From the NCBI RefSeq assembly GCF_013122565.1, contig NZ_CP053258.1: a DNA stretch of 64,000 bases. One strand, written 5' to 3'. Under the pieces are notes generated by a model. That model ran no database searches. It was not told the origin of the DNA and saw nothing but the letters and a program-made list of their open reading frames with translations. The position numbers and the translations under genes are program-made. This document shows, piece by piece, positions 18,122 to 23,051 of the stretch (positions are counted from its first letter, which is position 1; every line of letters begins with the position of its first letter). The DNA is from Escherichia coli. GTDB taxonomy: Bacteria > Pseudomonadota > Gammaproteobacteria > Enterobacterales > Enterobacteriaceae.

Positions 18122-20191
18122 ATGTCTGAGAAAACTTTTCTGGTGGAAATCGGCACTGAAGAGCTGCCACCAAAAGCACTGCGCAGCCTGGCAGAGTCCT
18201 TTGCTGCGAACTTTACTGCGGAGCTGGATAACGCCGGCCTCGCACACGGCACCGTTCAATGGTTTGCTGCTCCGCGTCGTCTGGCGCTGAAAGTAGCTAA
18301 CCTGGCGGAAGCGCAACCGGATCGTGAAATCGAAAAACGCGGCCCGGCGATTGCCCAGGCGTTCGACGCTGAAGGCAAACCGAGCAAAGCGGCAGAAGGT
18401 TGGGCGCGTGGTTGCGGTATTACCGTTGACCAGGCTGAGCGTCTGACTACCGATAAAGGCGAATGGCTGCTGTATCGCGCCCATGTGAAGGGCGAAAGCA
18501 CTGAAGCACTGCTGCCGAATATGGTTGCGACTTCGCTGGCGAAGCTGCCGATCCCGAAACTGATGCGTTGGGGCGCAAGCGACGTGCACTTCGTGCGTCC
18601 GGTGCACACCGTGACCCTGCTGCTGGGCGACAAAGTCATTCCGGCAACCATTCTGGGCATTCAGTCCGATCGCGTGATTCGCGGCCACCGCTTTATGGGC
18701 GAGCCGGAATTCACCATCGATAACGCCGATCAGTATCCGGAAATTCTGCGTGAGCGCGGGAAAGTCATCGCCGATTACGAAGAACGTAAGGCGAAGATTA
18801 AAGCCGATGCCGAAGAAGCAGCACGGAAGATTGGCGGTAACGCTGACTTAAGCGAAAGTCTGCTGGAAGAAGTGGCTTCGCTGGTGGAGTGGCCGGTTGT
18901 GCTGACCGCAAAATTCGAAGAGAAATTCCTCGCGGTGCCGTCTGAAGCGCTGGTTTACACCATGAAAGGTGACCAGAAATACTTCCCGGTGTATGCGAAC
19001 GATGGCAAACTGCTGCCGAACTTCATCTTCGTTGCCAACATCGAATCGAAAGATCCGCAGCAAATTATCTCTGGTAACGAGAAAGTCGTTCGTCCACGTC
19101 TGGCGGATGCCGAGTTCTTCTTCAATACCGACCGTAAAAAACGTCTGGAAGATAACCTGCCGCGCCTGCAAACCGTGCTGTTCCAGCAACAGCTGGGTAC
19201 GCTGCGTGACAAAACTGACCGCATCCAGGCGCTGGCTGGCTGGATTGCTGAACAGATTGGCGCTGACGTTAACCACGCAACCCGTGCGGGCCTGCTGTCT
19301 AAGTGTGACCTGATGACCAACATGGTCTTCGAGTTCACCGACACCCAAGGCGTTATGGGGATGCACTACGCGCGTCACGATGGCGAAGCGGAAGATGTCG
19401 CGGTGGCGCTGAATGAGCAGTATCAGCCGCGCTTTGCCGGTGATGACCTGCCGTCCAACCCGGTAGCTTGTGCGCTGGCGATTGCTGATAAGATGGATAC
19501 TCTGGCGGGTATCTTCGGTATCGGTCAGCATCCGAAAGGCGACAAAGACCCGTTTGCGTTGCGTCGTGCCGCACTTGGCGTACTGCGTATTATCGTTGAG
19601 AAGAACCTCAACCTTGATCTGCAAACGCTGACCGAAGAAGCAGTGCGTCTGTATGGCGATAAGCTGACTAATGCCAACGTGGTTGATGATGTTATCGACT
19701 TTATGCTCGGTCGCTTCCGCGCCTGGTATCAGGACGAAGGTTACACCGTTGATACCATCCAGGCGGTACTGGCGCGTCGTCCGACTCGTCCGGCTGATTT
19801 CGATGCCCGTATGAAAGCGGTATCGCACTTCCGTACCCTGGAAGCAGCTGCAGCACTGGCGGCGGCGAACAAACGTGTATCTAACATCCTGGCGAAATCT
19901 GACGAAGTGCTGAGCGATCGCGTGAATGCCTCTACTCTGAAAGAGCCAGAAGAAATTAAACTGGCGATGCAGGTTGTGGTGCTACGTGACAAGCTGGAGC
20001 CGTACTTTGCGGAAGGTCGTTACCAGGATGCGCTGGTCGAACTGGCAGAGCTGCGTGAGCCGGTTGATGCTTTCTTCGATAAAGTGATGGTCATGGTTGA
20101 TGACAAAGAATTGCGAATCAACCGTCTTACCATGCTGGAGAAACTGCGCGAATTATTCCTGCGCGTTGCAGATATTTCGCTGTTGCAGTAA
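18122..20191 (+). CDS. glyS: glycine--tRNA ligase beta subunit
   Basis: 689-aa ORF matching GlyS; 9 nt after glyQ. Confidence 0.95.
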
Positions 20192-20206
20192 TCGATAAGT
20201 AATGGA

Positions 20207-20241
20207 AAAACCGACATTCATTTTGGGTGTCGGTTTTTTTT
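20207..20241 (+). terminator. glyQS rho-independent terminator
   Basis: Hairpin aaccgacattcattttgggtgtcggtt followed by an 8-T run. Confidence 0.8.
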
Positions 20242-20259
20242 AATCTTAAGGAATGAGAT

Positions 20260-20619
20260 TTGGCAAAGTTACGAAAGATAGTGGTGGCTGGTCGCACCTG
20301 GTTTTGGGTTTATCGTTACTACTATGCAGATGAGCGAGATTGTTATTTAAGGATAATAAGCGAAGATAAAAAAGCACAGTTTGTAATCTATTTCAGAACT
20401 CCTACTTACCATTACGGTTGTCACCCATTAAATGATGGCCTGCCAGCTTTATACAATAATGTAAAAATCAATATTAATTTGAATCAACCTCGCTTTGTGG
20501 CTCAGTTACTGACTTATGTGTTGGAGAATATTCTTCAAGGTACACCATCAGATGTAATCGAGTACGAGAACGGTAATGAGATGTTACAGCAGCTTGGGTA
20601 TGAGTTTGATTATAAATAA
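20260..20619 (+). CDS. hypothetical protein (orphan ORF, TTG start, no recognisable domain)
   Basis: 119-codon ORF in AT-rich DNA; taaggaa SD 6 nt before TTG at 20260; no in-frame ATG until codon 108; Tyr/Asn/Lys-rich. Confidence 0.35.
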   Translation: MAKLRKIVVAGRTWFWVYRYYYADERDCYLRIISEDKKAQFVIYFRTPTYHYGCHPLNDGLPALYNNVKININLNQPRFVAQLLTYVLENILQGTPSDVIEYENGNEMLQQLGYEFDYK

Positions 20620-20729
20620 TAAAATCCTCATGCCCCATAAATCCTGGTTAATACGATTGTGTTTAATAATCACCTGTTGAATATAATATTATTTATCTAT
20701 TCATTAAGTGAAATTTTTTTTCGGAATTT

Positions 20730-20847
20730 ATCAACAAGAGTGAAATCAGAATTTACGCTAGAATAGCTGCGGGTGCTTGAGACTGTTTGTCTCAGGTATT
20801 CACCGAAAGGCAGACAGAGAAAAGCCCCACCTGACTATAAATCAAAG
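20730..20847 (+). promoter_or_regulatory. hok-type promoter and 5' leader, truncated by IS150
   Basis: -10 tagaat at 20759-20764; leader gggtgcttgagactgtttgtctcagg resembles the 5' end of plasmid R1 hok mRNA; IS150 interrupts it at 20848. Confidence 0.45.
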
Positions 20848-20894
20848 TGTACTGCACCCATTTTGTTGGACGATGAAATGGAATAGCCCCTGAT

Positions 20895-21416
20895 ATGTCA
20901 AAGCCAAAATACCCTTTTGAAAAGCGCCTTGAAGTCGTGAATCACTACTTCACTACTGATGATGGTTACAGGATCATCTCGGCACGTTTTGGTGTCCCCC
21001 GAACCCAGGTCAGGACATGGGTTGCCCTCTATGAAAAACATGGAGAAAAAGGTTTAATTCCCAAACCTAAAGGTGTTAGTGCTGATCCAGAGTTGCGTAT
21101 TAAGGTCGTGAAAGCTGTGATCGAGCAGCACATGTCCCTTAATCAGGCTGCTGCTCACTTTATGCTTGCTGGTAGTGGTTCTGTAGCCAGGTGGCTGAAG
21201 GTTTATGAAGAGCGCGGAGAAGCTGGTTTACGCGCGCTCAAGATTGGCACCAAAAGAAACATTGCAATATCAGTTGATCCAGAAAAAGCGGCATCAGCAT
21301 TGGAGCTGTCAAAAGACCGACGCATTGAGGATCTTGAAAGGCAAGTTCGATTTCTTGAAACGCGGCTTGTGTATCTAAAAAAGCTGAAAGCCTTAGCTCA
21401 TCCCACGAAAAAGTGA
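20895..21416 (+). CDS. insJ: IS150 OrfA (InsJ), HTH transposase subunit
   Basis: 173-aa ORF matching IS150 InsJ; A AAA AAG slippery heptamer at 21377-21383 near its 3' end. Confidence 0.95.
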   Translation: MSKPKYPFEKRLEVVNHYFTTDDGYRIISARFGVPRTQVRTWVALYEKHGEKGLIPKPKGVSADPELRIKVVKAVIEQHMSLNQAAAHFMLAGSGSVARWLKVYEERGEAGLRALKIGTKRNIAISVDPEKAASALELSKDRRIEDLERQVRFLETRLVYLKKLKALAHPTKK

Positions 21417-22264
21417 AAGTACTCAACGAGCTAAGGCAGTTTTATCCTCTTGATGAGCTTCTCAGGGCTGCGGAGATACCGCGCAGTACGTTTTATTACC
21501 ATCTAAAGGCTCTCAGCAAGCCTGACAAGTATGCGGACGTTAAAAAGCGTATTGGTGAGATTTATCATGAGAATAGAGGCCGATACGGATACCGTAGGGT
21601 AACGCTGTCTCTTCATCGAGAAGGGAAACAGATTAACCATAAAGCTGTTCAGCGCCTGATGGGAACCCTCTCACTTAAGGCAGCGATTAAGGTCAAGCGA
21701 TACCGCTCTTACAGAGGAGAGGTAGGGCAAACCGCCCCCAATGTTCTCCAAAGAGATTTCAAGGCTACGCGGCCAAACGAGAAGTGGGTTACCGATGTTA
21801 CTGAATTTGCAGTCAATGGGCGCAAGCTGTATTTGTCTCCAGTAATAGATCTCTTCAACAATGAAGTTATTTCTTACAGCCTTTCGGAAAGACCTGTGAT
21901 GAACATGGTTGAGAATATGCTCGATCAGGCATTCAAAAAGCTTAATCCTCACGAGCATCCTGTTCTGCACTCTGACCAGGGATGGCAGTATCGTATGAGA
22001 AGATATCAAAATATCCTTAAAGAACATGGTATTAAACAAAGCATGTCCAGAAAAGGCAATTGTCTGGATAATGCTGTGGTGGAGTGTTTCTTTGGAACCT
22101 TAAAGTCGGAGTGTTTTTATCTTGATGAGTTCAGTAATATAAGCGAACTGAAGGATGCTGTTACGGAATATATTGAATACTACAACAGAAGAAGAATTAG
22201 CCTGAAATTAAAAGGTCTGACTCCAATTGAATATCGGAATCAGACCTATATGCCTCGTGTTTAA
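21413..22264 (+). CDS. insK: IS150 OrfB (InsK), DDE transposase catalytic domain
   Basis: 283-aa ORF in the -1 frame relative to insJ, overlapping by 4 nt; expressed as OrfAB fusion by -1 frameshifting. Confidence 0.95.
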
Positions 22265-22366
22265 CTGTCCAACTTTTTGGGGTCAGTACAAAGTGAGGCT
22301 GCCTCTATGCTTCAACAACATAAGGTTAGCCTCTTACTCGTTGGAAATCAACACAGGAGGCTGGGA

Positions 22367-22520
22367 ATGCCGCAGAAATACGGATTACTATTCGTTAATA
22401 GTGATTTGTTTCACGCTTTTATTTTTCACCTGGATGATAAGAGATTCACTGTGTGAATTGCATATTAAACAGGAGAGTTATGAGCTGGCGGCGTTTTTAG
22501 CCTGCAAATTGAAAGAGTAA
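22367..22520 (+). pseudogene. hokA: hokA toxin gene, apparently frameshifted
   Basis: ATG at 22367 behind aggagg SD gives MPQKY (HokA N-terminus), but the HokA body SLIVICFTLLFFTWMIRDSLCELHIKQESYELAAFLACKLKE lies in another frame; one extra T near 22391 relative to the sequence implied by the 50-aa HokA. Confidence 0.6.
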
Positions 22521-22679: not shown

Positions 22680-23051
22680 ATGAATAAACTGCTTTTACTG
22701 TTGATAATGCTTTATCAACGACATCTTTCTCCTCGCAAAGGATACCGCTGTGCTTACAGTGTGTTGTACCAAACGCAGGGATGTTCGGGAGCAGTCAAAG
22801 AGATTATTCAACAGAAAGGTGTTATTGCAGGCTGGGGCGATATACGTCAGCGTTTTGCAGATTGCCGACTTGCGGCAAAGACAATCAGGCAGAAGCAACA
22901 CCTGAACGAGGTAATACGTAAAAAGAAGAATAATGATTGTGATTGTTCCGGGTGTGATGGTGCGGTCTGTCGTGATTGCGACATTCCGGTGCCGGATCTG
23001 GATTGTTCCTGGGACTGTTCTTCTCTACATTTAAAGCGGTTTTTCCAATAA
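22680..23051 (+). CDS. YidD-like (haemolytic-domain family) small protein with Cys-rich C-terminal region
   Basis: 123-aa ORF, ggag SD 4-9 nt upstream; YQRHLSP, GVIAGWG and DIPVPD motifs parallel YidD YQRLISP / GVIKGSW / DDPVPP; 7 Cys in the last 40 residues. Confidence 0.5.
   Translation: MNKLLLLLIMLYQRHLSPRKGYRCAYSVLYQTQGCSGAVKEIIQQKGVIAGWGDIRQRFADCRLAAKTIRQKQHLNEVIRKKKNNDCDCSGCDGAVCRDCDIPVPDLDCSWDCSSLHLKRFFQ

What the first reader, a model, noticed from the sequence alone, without database searches (positions are those of the whole stretch)
20260..20619. AT-rich orphan ORF immediately after the glyS terminator
A 119-codon reading frame starts 19 nt after the glyS terminator with a good SD (taaggaa) 6 nt before a TTG, and has no in-frame ATG until codon 108. 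Composition is markedly AT-rich against GC-rich flanking genes, and the product (WFWVYRYYYADERDCYLRIISEDKK...) has no motif I can assign. It could be a horizontally acquired small gene read through from glyS, a decayed remnant, or non-coding.
Basis: seen in the sequence. Interest (0 to 1): 0.5.

Follow-up and report, generated by a model that had tools for sequence, protein, structure and literature searches.

The report
Real small gene lost from E. coli
The AT-rich reading frame after glyS is a genuine protein-coding gene from an unnamed, uncharacterised family of ~120-residue proteins; other Escherichia species keep it at this exact spot, mainstream E. coli has deleted it, and its function is still unknown.

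Summary
A 119-codon TTG-initiated frame (20260-20619) lies 18 nt after a strong terminator hairpin and has 36.9% GC against 55% for glyS. It is not an orphan. Intact syntenic orthologs (glyS, ORF, hokA) exist in E. fergusonii, E. albertii, cryptic-clade Escherichia and a few E. coli. Three of these lineages have ATG at the same codon, one indel is in frame, and omega is about 0.3 (significant) at the deeper divergences. About 50 clusters at 50% identity, mostly from Firmicutes, align end to end and share motifs (R5, W16, PLNxGLPA, INLNQPxF, LGY). AlphaFold gives a confident compact alpha/beta fold (pLDDT 87). None of 5,426 complete RefSeq E. coli genomes carries the DNA; in E. coli, homology stops at the glyS stop codon. 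No Pfam, NCBIfam, PHROG, PADLOC or PDB match was found. The only functional lead is Foldseek similarity (TM about 0.76) to proteins labelled Imm50 and DUF4313. Gene neighbourhoods do not support an immunity role: no toxin neighbours, no arrays, variable contexts. NCBI already lists the protein as "hypothetical protein" (WP_171460170.1). Verdict: a real, old, weakly constrained accessory gene, probably expressed at a low level by terminator read-through, and probably a non-enzymatic binding protein. Interest is modest.

The parts
18122..20191 (+). glyS (context); homology with E. coli ends exactly at its stop codon
   Evidence: 98% identity to E. coli glyS; the match ends at query 2071 = window 20192
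20204..20241 (+). Intrinsic terminator hairpin (A-run, GC core ACCGACA/TGTCGGT, U8) immediately upstream of the ORF. It belongs to the same lineage-specific segment as the ORF.
   Evidence: dG -24.3, z -5.2; conserved with the ORF in E. fergusonii and L007; E. coli has a different terminator
20248..20252 (+). Shine-Dalgarno AAGGA, 7 nt before the start codon
   Evidence: identical in all six Escherichia haplotypes
20260..20619 (+). 119-aa protein-coding gene (TTG start), identical to WP_171460170.1; member of an unnamed family of ~120-aa alpha/beta proteins
20620..20847 (+). AT-rich spacer carrying the hokA promoter and the 5' part of the hokA leader (context). No terminator follows the ORF.
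   Evidence: Rfam sok/hok model match starts at 20771
20848..22290 (+). IS150 (1443 bp, insJ/insK) inserted in the hokA leader with a 3-bp AAG target duplication (context)
22368..22520 (+). hokA toxin ORF (context), cut off from its promoter by IS150

Best explanation
This is a genuine protein-coding gene. It encodes a 119-residue soluble cytoplasmic alpha/beta protein from an unnamed, uncharacterised family that is scattered mainly through Firmicutes, with sporadic Proteobacteria. An ancestor of the genus Escherichia acquired it (AT-rich, foreign composition) between glyS and the hokA toxin-antitoxin locus. E. albertii, E. fergusonii, cryptic clades and a few E. coli keep it intact and under weak purifying selection. 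Mainstream E. coli has replaced the terminator-plus-ORF segment with a short terminator. Inferred, not shown: the gene has no promoter of its own and sits behind a strong terminator with a TTG start, so it is probably expressed at a low level from glyQS transcripts that read through the terminator. Inferred, weakly: the conserved residues are structural (G, P, W, F, Y, L) plus R5, K6, N73 and N75, with no catalytic-type set, and the fold resembles proteins labelled Imm50 and DUF4313. The product therefore most likely works by binding another macromolecule stoichiometrically, for example as a stand-alone immunity-like protein against a delivered toxin, rather than as an enzyme.
For: Coding status: full-length homologs in about 50 clusters at 50% identity, 11 of them at E<=1e-10, aligned from residue 1-4 to the end. 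The 38-sequence alignment has invariant R5 and W16 and near-invariant F45, G60, N73, N75, P77, G105, L109, G113 and Y114. AF2 gives pLDDT 87 and pTM 0.82. Syntenic intact orthologs exist in E. fergusonii, L007, L008, E. albertii and E. sp. E4742. Three lineages have ATG at the same codon, the SD is conserved, and the only indel is 6 nt and in frame. Omega is 0.24-0.34 with p from 2e-4 to 0.03 in the deeper pairs. Chance ORF probability is 0.5%. Loss in E. coli: no blastn match in 5,426 genomes; homology breaks at the glyS stop and resumes about 460 nt downstream, just upstream of the hokA promoter (~20650-20660). Foreign composition. Expression inference: strong hairpin and no promoter-like site upstream on the + strand. 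Function inference: Foldseek TM 0.77 (E 8e-7) to a DUF4313 protein and TM 0.76 (E 3e-6) to an 'Immunity protein 50'. Imm50 is a small, mostly-beta immunity protein of Tox-HHH and Ntox24 toxins (PMC3482391). There is no TM segment or catalytic motif. One member is fused to a second small domain, DUF2262.
Confidence: 0.55

Rival explanations
1. It is a real gene family, but in this strain and in the TTG-start lineages the copy is an effectively silent passenger drifting toward decay. It sits behind a strong terminator, has a weak start codon, and may be H-NS-silenced as AT-rich DNA.
For: Strong terminator 18 nt upstream and no promoter. TTG replaces ATG in the window, E. fergusonii and L008. Omega is 0.7-1.0 on short branches involving the window. 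The window has lineage-specific replacements in the otherwise conserved GxCPFN segment. The gene has been lost from essentially all E. coli, and homologs in Listeria and Isobaculum look frameshifted.
Against: The frame is intact in every Escherichia lineage that has the segment, including E. albertii at glyS dS 0.45. Purifying selection is significant in the deeper comparisons. The SD is perfectly conserved.
Confidence: 0.25
2. It is a functional small protein whose role has nothing to do with toxin immunity, for example a basic adaptor or regulator that binds nucleic acid or a nucleic-acid enzyme.
For: Neutral to basic pI, with invariant R5 and conserved K6 at the N-terminus. Some neighbours are nucleases: an RNase_T-family exonuclease directly upstream of the DUF2262 fusion, and a 5'-3' exonuclease and RNase H flanking the Listeria copy. 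There is no toxin context anywhere.
Against: The nuclease neighbours occur in only 2 of about 15 distinct contexts. Other contexts have kinases, acetyltransferases or housekeeping genes. No known nucleic-acid-binding fold was matched.
Confidence: 0.15
3. It is non-coding: a chance open frame in AT-rich intergenic DNA, or DNA whose real function lies on the opposite strand or belongs to hokA regulation.
For: ORF identity between species is no higher than that of the flanking intergenic DNA, and the codon-position bias of variable sites is weak. A weak promoter-like site on the minus strand at 20712-20683 faces the bidirectional terminator.
Against: There are about 50 remote protein homolog clusters with conserved motifs and matching length in unrelated genomes that lack hok. 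The predicted fold is confident. Start-codon interchange is ATG/TTG and the indel is in frame. No Rfam hit lies inside the ORF. The promoter-like count is at the shuffle expectation.
Confidence: 0.03

Closest known systems
Imm50 (Pfam PF15594), predicted immunity protein of polymorphic toxin systems (Zhang et al. 2012, PMC3482391)
   Same: Similar size (about 120-140 aa), cytoplasmic, beta-rich with C-terminal helices, conservation mostly of hydrophobic and structural residues, patchy cross-phylum distribution. Foldseek gives TM 0.76 and E 3e-6 to an AFDB protein with this label.
   Different: No member matches the Imm50 HMM. The gene is never found next to a Tox-HHH, EHHH, Ntox24, Rhs, CDI or LXG toxin, nor in polyimmunity arrays. 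The upstream gene here is glyS.
DUF4313 (Pfam PF14190), uncharacterised bacterial domain
   Same: Foldseek gives TM 0.77, E 8e-7 and 29% identity over about 120 columns to a Myroides DUF4313 protein. The length is similar.
   Different: No HMM match for any of the 38 members. DUF4313 itself has no known function, so the link explains nothing about mechanism.
AT-rich, horizontally acquired accessory genes in enterobacterial intergenic spots (xenogeneic DNA, often H-NS silenced; from general knowledge)
   Same: The GC is 18 points below the flanks, the gene sits at a tRNA-synthetase/TA-locus junction, presence varies across the genus, and it lacks a promoter of its own.
   Different: It is not strain-specific. 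It is syntenic and intact across Escherichia species. H-NS binding was not tested.

Membership tests
Unnamed family of WP_171460170.1 / A0A7W3EG23-like ~120-aa proteins | Full-length sequence homology to other members | tested here: met
   phmmer finds 50 clusters at E<=1e-3 and 11 at E<=1e-10, covering residues 1-4 to 114-119. A family HMM scores the window copy at 142 bits.
Unnamed family of WP_171460170.1 / A0A7W3EG23-like ~120-aa proteins | Conserved motifs: R5, W16, PLNxGLPA, INLNQPxF(V/I)A, GxxxLxxLGY | tested here: met
   All are present in the window protein. The window has CHPLNDGLPA where most members have GxCPFN or GSPLN.
Imm50 (PF15594) | Significant match to the Pfam Imm50 profile | tested here: not met
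   No Pfam hit for the window protein even at E<=10. None of the 38 members hits Imm50 at E<=0.1.
Imm50 (PF15594) | Fold shared with Imm50-annotated proteins | tested here: inconclusive
Imm50 (PF15594) | Gene immediately downstream of a polymorphic toxin (Tox-HHH/EHHH, Ntox24) or inside a polyimmunity locus | tested here: not met
   Upstream is glyS in all Escherichia. About 15 other contexts and 66 neighbour proteins show no toxin or Imm domains. There is one copy per locus.
Imm50 (PF15594) | Neutralises a cognate toxin by direct binding | not testable with these tools
   Needs co-expression or binding experiments.
DUF4313 (PF14190) | Significant match to the Pfam profile | tested here: not met
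   The only link is fold-level similarity.
hok/sok type I toxin-antitoxin locus (as a possible extra component) | Co-occurrence with hokA and presence in complete hokA loci | tested here: not met
   E. coli hokA loci are complete without the ORF. Family members outside Escherichia have no hok neighbour. The Rfam hok/sok model match starts at 20771, downstream of the ORF.
Phage or plasmid cargo gene | Presence on phage, plasmid or viral contigs | tested here: not met
   tblastn found nothing in 72,556 plasmids or 50,697 phages. No relative was found in IMG/VR. No meaningful PHROG match.
Anti-phage defence system component (PADLOC) | Match to a PADLOC model | tested here: not met
   No hit for 10 family members at E<=0.1.

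The most novel reading that the evidence does not exclude
The ORF represents an undescribed, Pfam-less family of small binding proteins, widespread in gut and soil Firmicutes and retained at one fixed site across Escherichia. The family could be a new stand-alone (toxin-unlinked) branch of the Imm50/DUF4313 fold that gives pre-emptive immunity to delivered nuclease toxins. Its loss would then have changed mainstream E. coli's susceptibility in inter-bacterial competition.
Probability: 0.25. Interest if true: 0.45.

Novelty: new member of a known kind. Interest (0 to 1): 0.3.

Why it matters
The result settles the annotation question. This is a true gene, not debris, so it should be kept in annotations even though K-12-type genomes lack it. 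It also marks a clean presence/absence difference between mainstream E. coli and the rest of the genus, next to a toxin-antitoxin locus that IS150 hits repeatedly. It adds one more sizeable protein family with a confident predicted fold and no Pfam model or known function. If the immunity-like reading is right, the family would be an example of toxin-unlinked, vertically retained immunity genes. Otherwise it remains an ordinary hypothetical accessory protein.

Tried and rejected
- Profile libraries gave nothing for the window protein or for family members: Pfam, NCBIfam, PHROGs, PADLOC and PDB sequence profiles.
- A profile search of the 5.8-billion-protein index with the family alignment, and a search with the divergent member P0049, returned only Pfam-less relatives. 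No sequence bridge to Imm50 or DUF4313 emerged.
- P0053 (998 aa) proved to be a spurious match to a repeat protein.
- A batch Pfam scan of 66 neighbour proteins showed no toxin or immunity enrichment.
- An HMM search for tandem paralogs found none.
- tblastn against plasmids and phages and an IMG/VR scan found nothing.
- Literature searches for DUF2262, PF10020, PF14190, PF15594 and hokA+IS150 gave nothing useful beyond Zhang et al. 2012. The supplement of that paper holds no Imm50 alignment, so no hhalign test against Imm50 could be run.
- The first attempt at the genome-wide locus scan failed because the alignment was too divergent.
- I considered and rejected the ORF being part of the hokA system, a recent import from E. 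fergusonii (the window haplotype differs from all sampled ones by at least 4.4% nt), and a minus-strand RNA gene.

Full report
**Observation**

The window around the finding is the Escherichia ysaB-glyQ-glyS region. glyS ends at 20191. The reported frame runs from 20260 to 20619 on the + strand, starts with TTG, has 119 codons, and ends in two tandem TAA codons. Its only in-frame ATG is codon 108. Between the glyS stop and the ORF lies a hairpin at 20204-20240 with a U8 run at 20234-20241. As RNA it folds at -24.3 kcal/mol, z = -5.2 against dinucleotide shuffles. The simple terminator scan missed it. The ORF starts 18 nt after the U run, and an AAGGA Shine-Dalgarno core lies 7 nt upstream of TTG. 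GC content is 36.9% (GC3 35.8%) against 55-56% (GC3 60-69%) for glyS and glyQ. A stop-free run this long appeared in only 0.5% of shuffles of the AT-rich segment.

**Whose genome, and what is at this locus elsewhere**

glyS is 98% identical to E. coli glyS in 5,425 of 5,426 complete RefSeq genomes, but every match stops at the glyS stop codon. The terminator and ORF DNA have no blastn match in any of those genomes, even at low stringency. Homology resumes about 460 nt downstream, just upstream of the hokA promoter (~20650-20660), at about 84% identity. In ordinary E. coli the order is glyS, a different short terminator, hokA, cspA. A sliding comparison shows the window is E. coli-like (97-100%) up to the stop codon. 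The exact protein is in NCBI as WP_171460170.1 / QJU26431.1, "hypothetical protein [Escherichia coli]".

**The ORF is not an orphan**

Close homologs of 87-99% amino-acid identity and 119-121 aa occur in several groups:
- E. fergusonii (many assemblies)
- E. albertii
- Escherichia sp. E3659 and E4742
- a handful of assemblies labelled E. coli
- metagenomes

In every case examined the gene lies in the same place and orientation, directly after glyS and its hairpin and before hokA. The SD is identical in all six haplotypes. The start codon is ATG in E. albertii, L007 and E4742, and TTG in the window, E. fergusonii and L008. The only length difference is an in-frame 6-nt insertion.

Nei-Gojobori estimates give omega of 0.24-0.34 in pairs involving the more divergent E. 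albertii and L008 lineages. The excess of synonymous changes there is significant (binomial p from 2e-4 to 0.03). In the closer pairs involving the window, omega is 0.7-1.0 and cannot be told apart from neutrality. Amino-acid replacements cluster in residues about 11-66. The motif-bearing C-terminal half is nearly invariant. Constraint is therefore real but weak, and ORF nucleotide identity is no higher than that of the neighbouring hokA-promoter DNA.

**A wider family**

An exhaustive phmmer search of 1.84 billion representative proteins found 50 clusters at E<=1e-3 (11 at E<=1e-10). Almost all are 110-135 aa and align from residue 1-4 to the C-terminus. One long hit (P0053) is a spurious repeat protein. 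A 38-sequence alignment has these features:
- invariant R5 and W16
- at least 90% conservation of F45, G60, N73, N75, P77, G105, L109, G113 and Y114
- motifs RKIxV..W, PLNxGLPA, INLNQPxF(V/I)A and G...L..LGY

The agreement on the N-terminus supports the TTG start. Named hosts include four Paenibacillus species, Listeria goaensis, Isobaculum melis, Clostridiales, Lachnospiraceae and Lonepinella. A second Escherichia paralog (49% identity, ATG start) lies next to an IS fragment. One subfamily is abundant in gut Lachnospiraceae, Ruminococcus and Oscillospiraceae MAGs. None is on a plasmid, phage or viral contig.

**Structure and family assignment**

AlphaFold2 with the family alignment gives a confident model (pLDDT 87.1, pTM 0.82). 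It has a four-stranded N-terminal beta-meander, a beta-hairpin, a long helix at 77-91, and a short beta-alpha-beta C-terminus. There is no hydrophobic segment (maximum 19-residue hydropathy 0.69). The family is neutral to basic (median pI 8.35). The conserved residues are structural plus R5, K6, N73 and N75, with no catalytic-type set.

**Testing the immunity idea**

The defining contextual feature of such immunity proteins is a toxin gene immediately upstream or membership of a polyimmunity array. That feature is not met:
- In Escherichia the upstream gene is glyS.
- In about 15 other contexts the neighbours are unrelated: YoaP-type acetyltransferase, TauE, PrmA, a CPT-like kinase in an island with HicAB and Phd, malate:quinone oxidoreductase, an ECF sigma factor, a 5'-3' exonuclease and RNase H.
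- A batch Pfam scan of 66 neighbour proteins showed no toxin or immunity domain enrichment.
- A family HMM found exactly one copy per locus.
- One member is fused to DUF2262, itself uncharacterised, and follows an RNase_T-family gene.

The Imm50/DUF4313 relationship is therefore a fold-level lead only. I do not file the protein as an Imm50 member.

**How it most likely works**

Shown: it is a conserved protein-coding gene of foreign composition, fixed at one locus across the genus and deleted from mainstream E. coli.

Inferred: no sigma-70-like site lies on the + strand between glyS and the ORF, and a strong terminator precedes the SD. Transcription must therefore come from glyQS read-through. 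With a TTG start, that predicts low expression in this strain. No terminator follows the ORF, so such transcripts would run on into the hokA leader, and here into IS150.

Inferred, weakly: the residue conservation pattern and the fold resemblance suggest a stoichiometric binding protein, possibly a stand-alone immunity-like factor. The main rivals are a silent passenger in this lineage, or a binding protein with an unrelated (perhaps nucleic-acid-linked) role. A non-coding reading is effectively excluded by the family evidence.

**Novelty and score**

The gene is already deposited as a hypothetical protein. What is added here:
- It is real.
- It belongs to a sizeable Pfam-less family with a confident fold.
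- It is an old syntenic Escherichia gene lost from E. coli.
- Its only functional lead is a weak Imm50/DUF4313-like fold similarity, contradicted by context.

This is of modest interest (0.3).

Noticed in passing
window 20845-20850 and 22288-22296; L035 (K-12), L036, L009: IS150 (20848-22290, 1443 bp, AAG target duplication) sits in the hokA mRNA leader. E. coli 19AR1321 has the same junction and orientation on a different upstream haplotype. K-12 MG1655 has IS150 inverted and offset by 2 bp. Metagenome contig L009 has it in direct orientation but offset by 2 bp. That makes at least three independent insertions within 2 bp, which suggests an insertion hot spot or selection to inactivate hokA.
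   Followed up: partly
window 22680-23051 (+): A 123-aa YidD-like ORF (weak PF01809 hit on its E. fergusonii ortholog) with a Cys-rich C-terminal tail lies between hokA and cspA. It is present in E. fergusonii and L007, absent from E. coli (L001, K-12), replaced by an unrelated 228-242-aa ORF in E. albertii, and reduced to 51 aa in E. sp. E4742.
   Followed up: no
window 20771-20924 and 22213-22369: Rfam's sok model (RF01794) scores 86 bits across the hokA-leader/IS150 left-end junction and only 38 bits (below its gathering score of 59) at 22213-22369, which spans the IS150 right end and the hokA leader just upstream of hokA. The curated model may have been built on sequence that includes the IS150 end.
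   Followed up: no
window 20260-20619 compared with 18122-20191: Synonymous divergence of the ORF is about three-fold lower than that of the adjacent glyS in most inter-species pairs (for example 0.15 against 0.45 to E. albertii); pairs involving the metagenomic L008 haplotype are the exception. The window and L011 share a nearly identical ORF but differ at glyS (dS 0.10, mosaic identity profile). This suggests recombinational exchange of the segment or unusual constraint on its DNA.
   Followed up: partly
L027 4980-5367 (Listeria goaensis); L020 4874-5279 (Isobaculum melis): The family copy is split over two reading frames in both genomes. These are apparent pseudogenes or sequencing errors.
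   Followed up: no
L019 1085-1471 (Escherichia sp. MOD1-EC7003): A second, 49%-identical paralog (128 aa, ATG start) lies on a short high-coverage contig, downstream of a 194-aa apparently secreted protein and next to a transposase fragment. This indicates an independent acquisition of the family in Escherichia.
   Followed up: no
L039 4361-7718 (E. albertii CP117628.1): In one E. albertii genome an IS21-family element (IstA/IstB) lies between the ORF and hokA, another IS hit in the same short interval.
   Followed up: no
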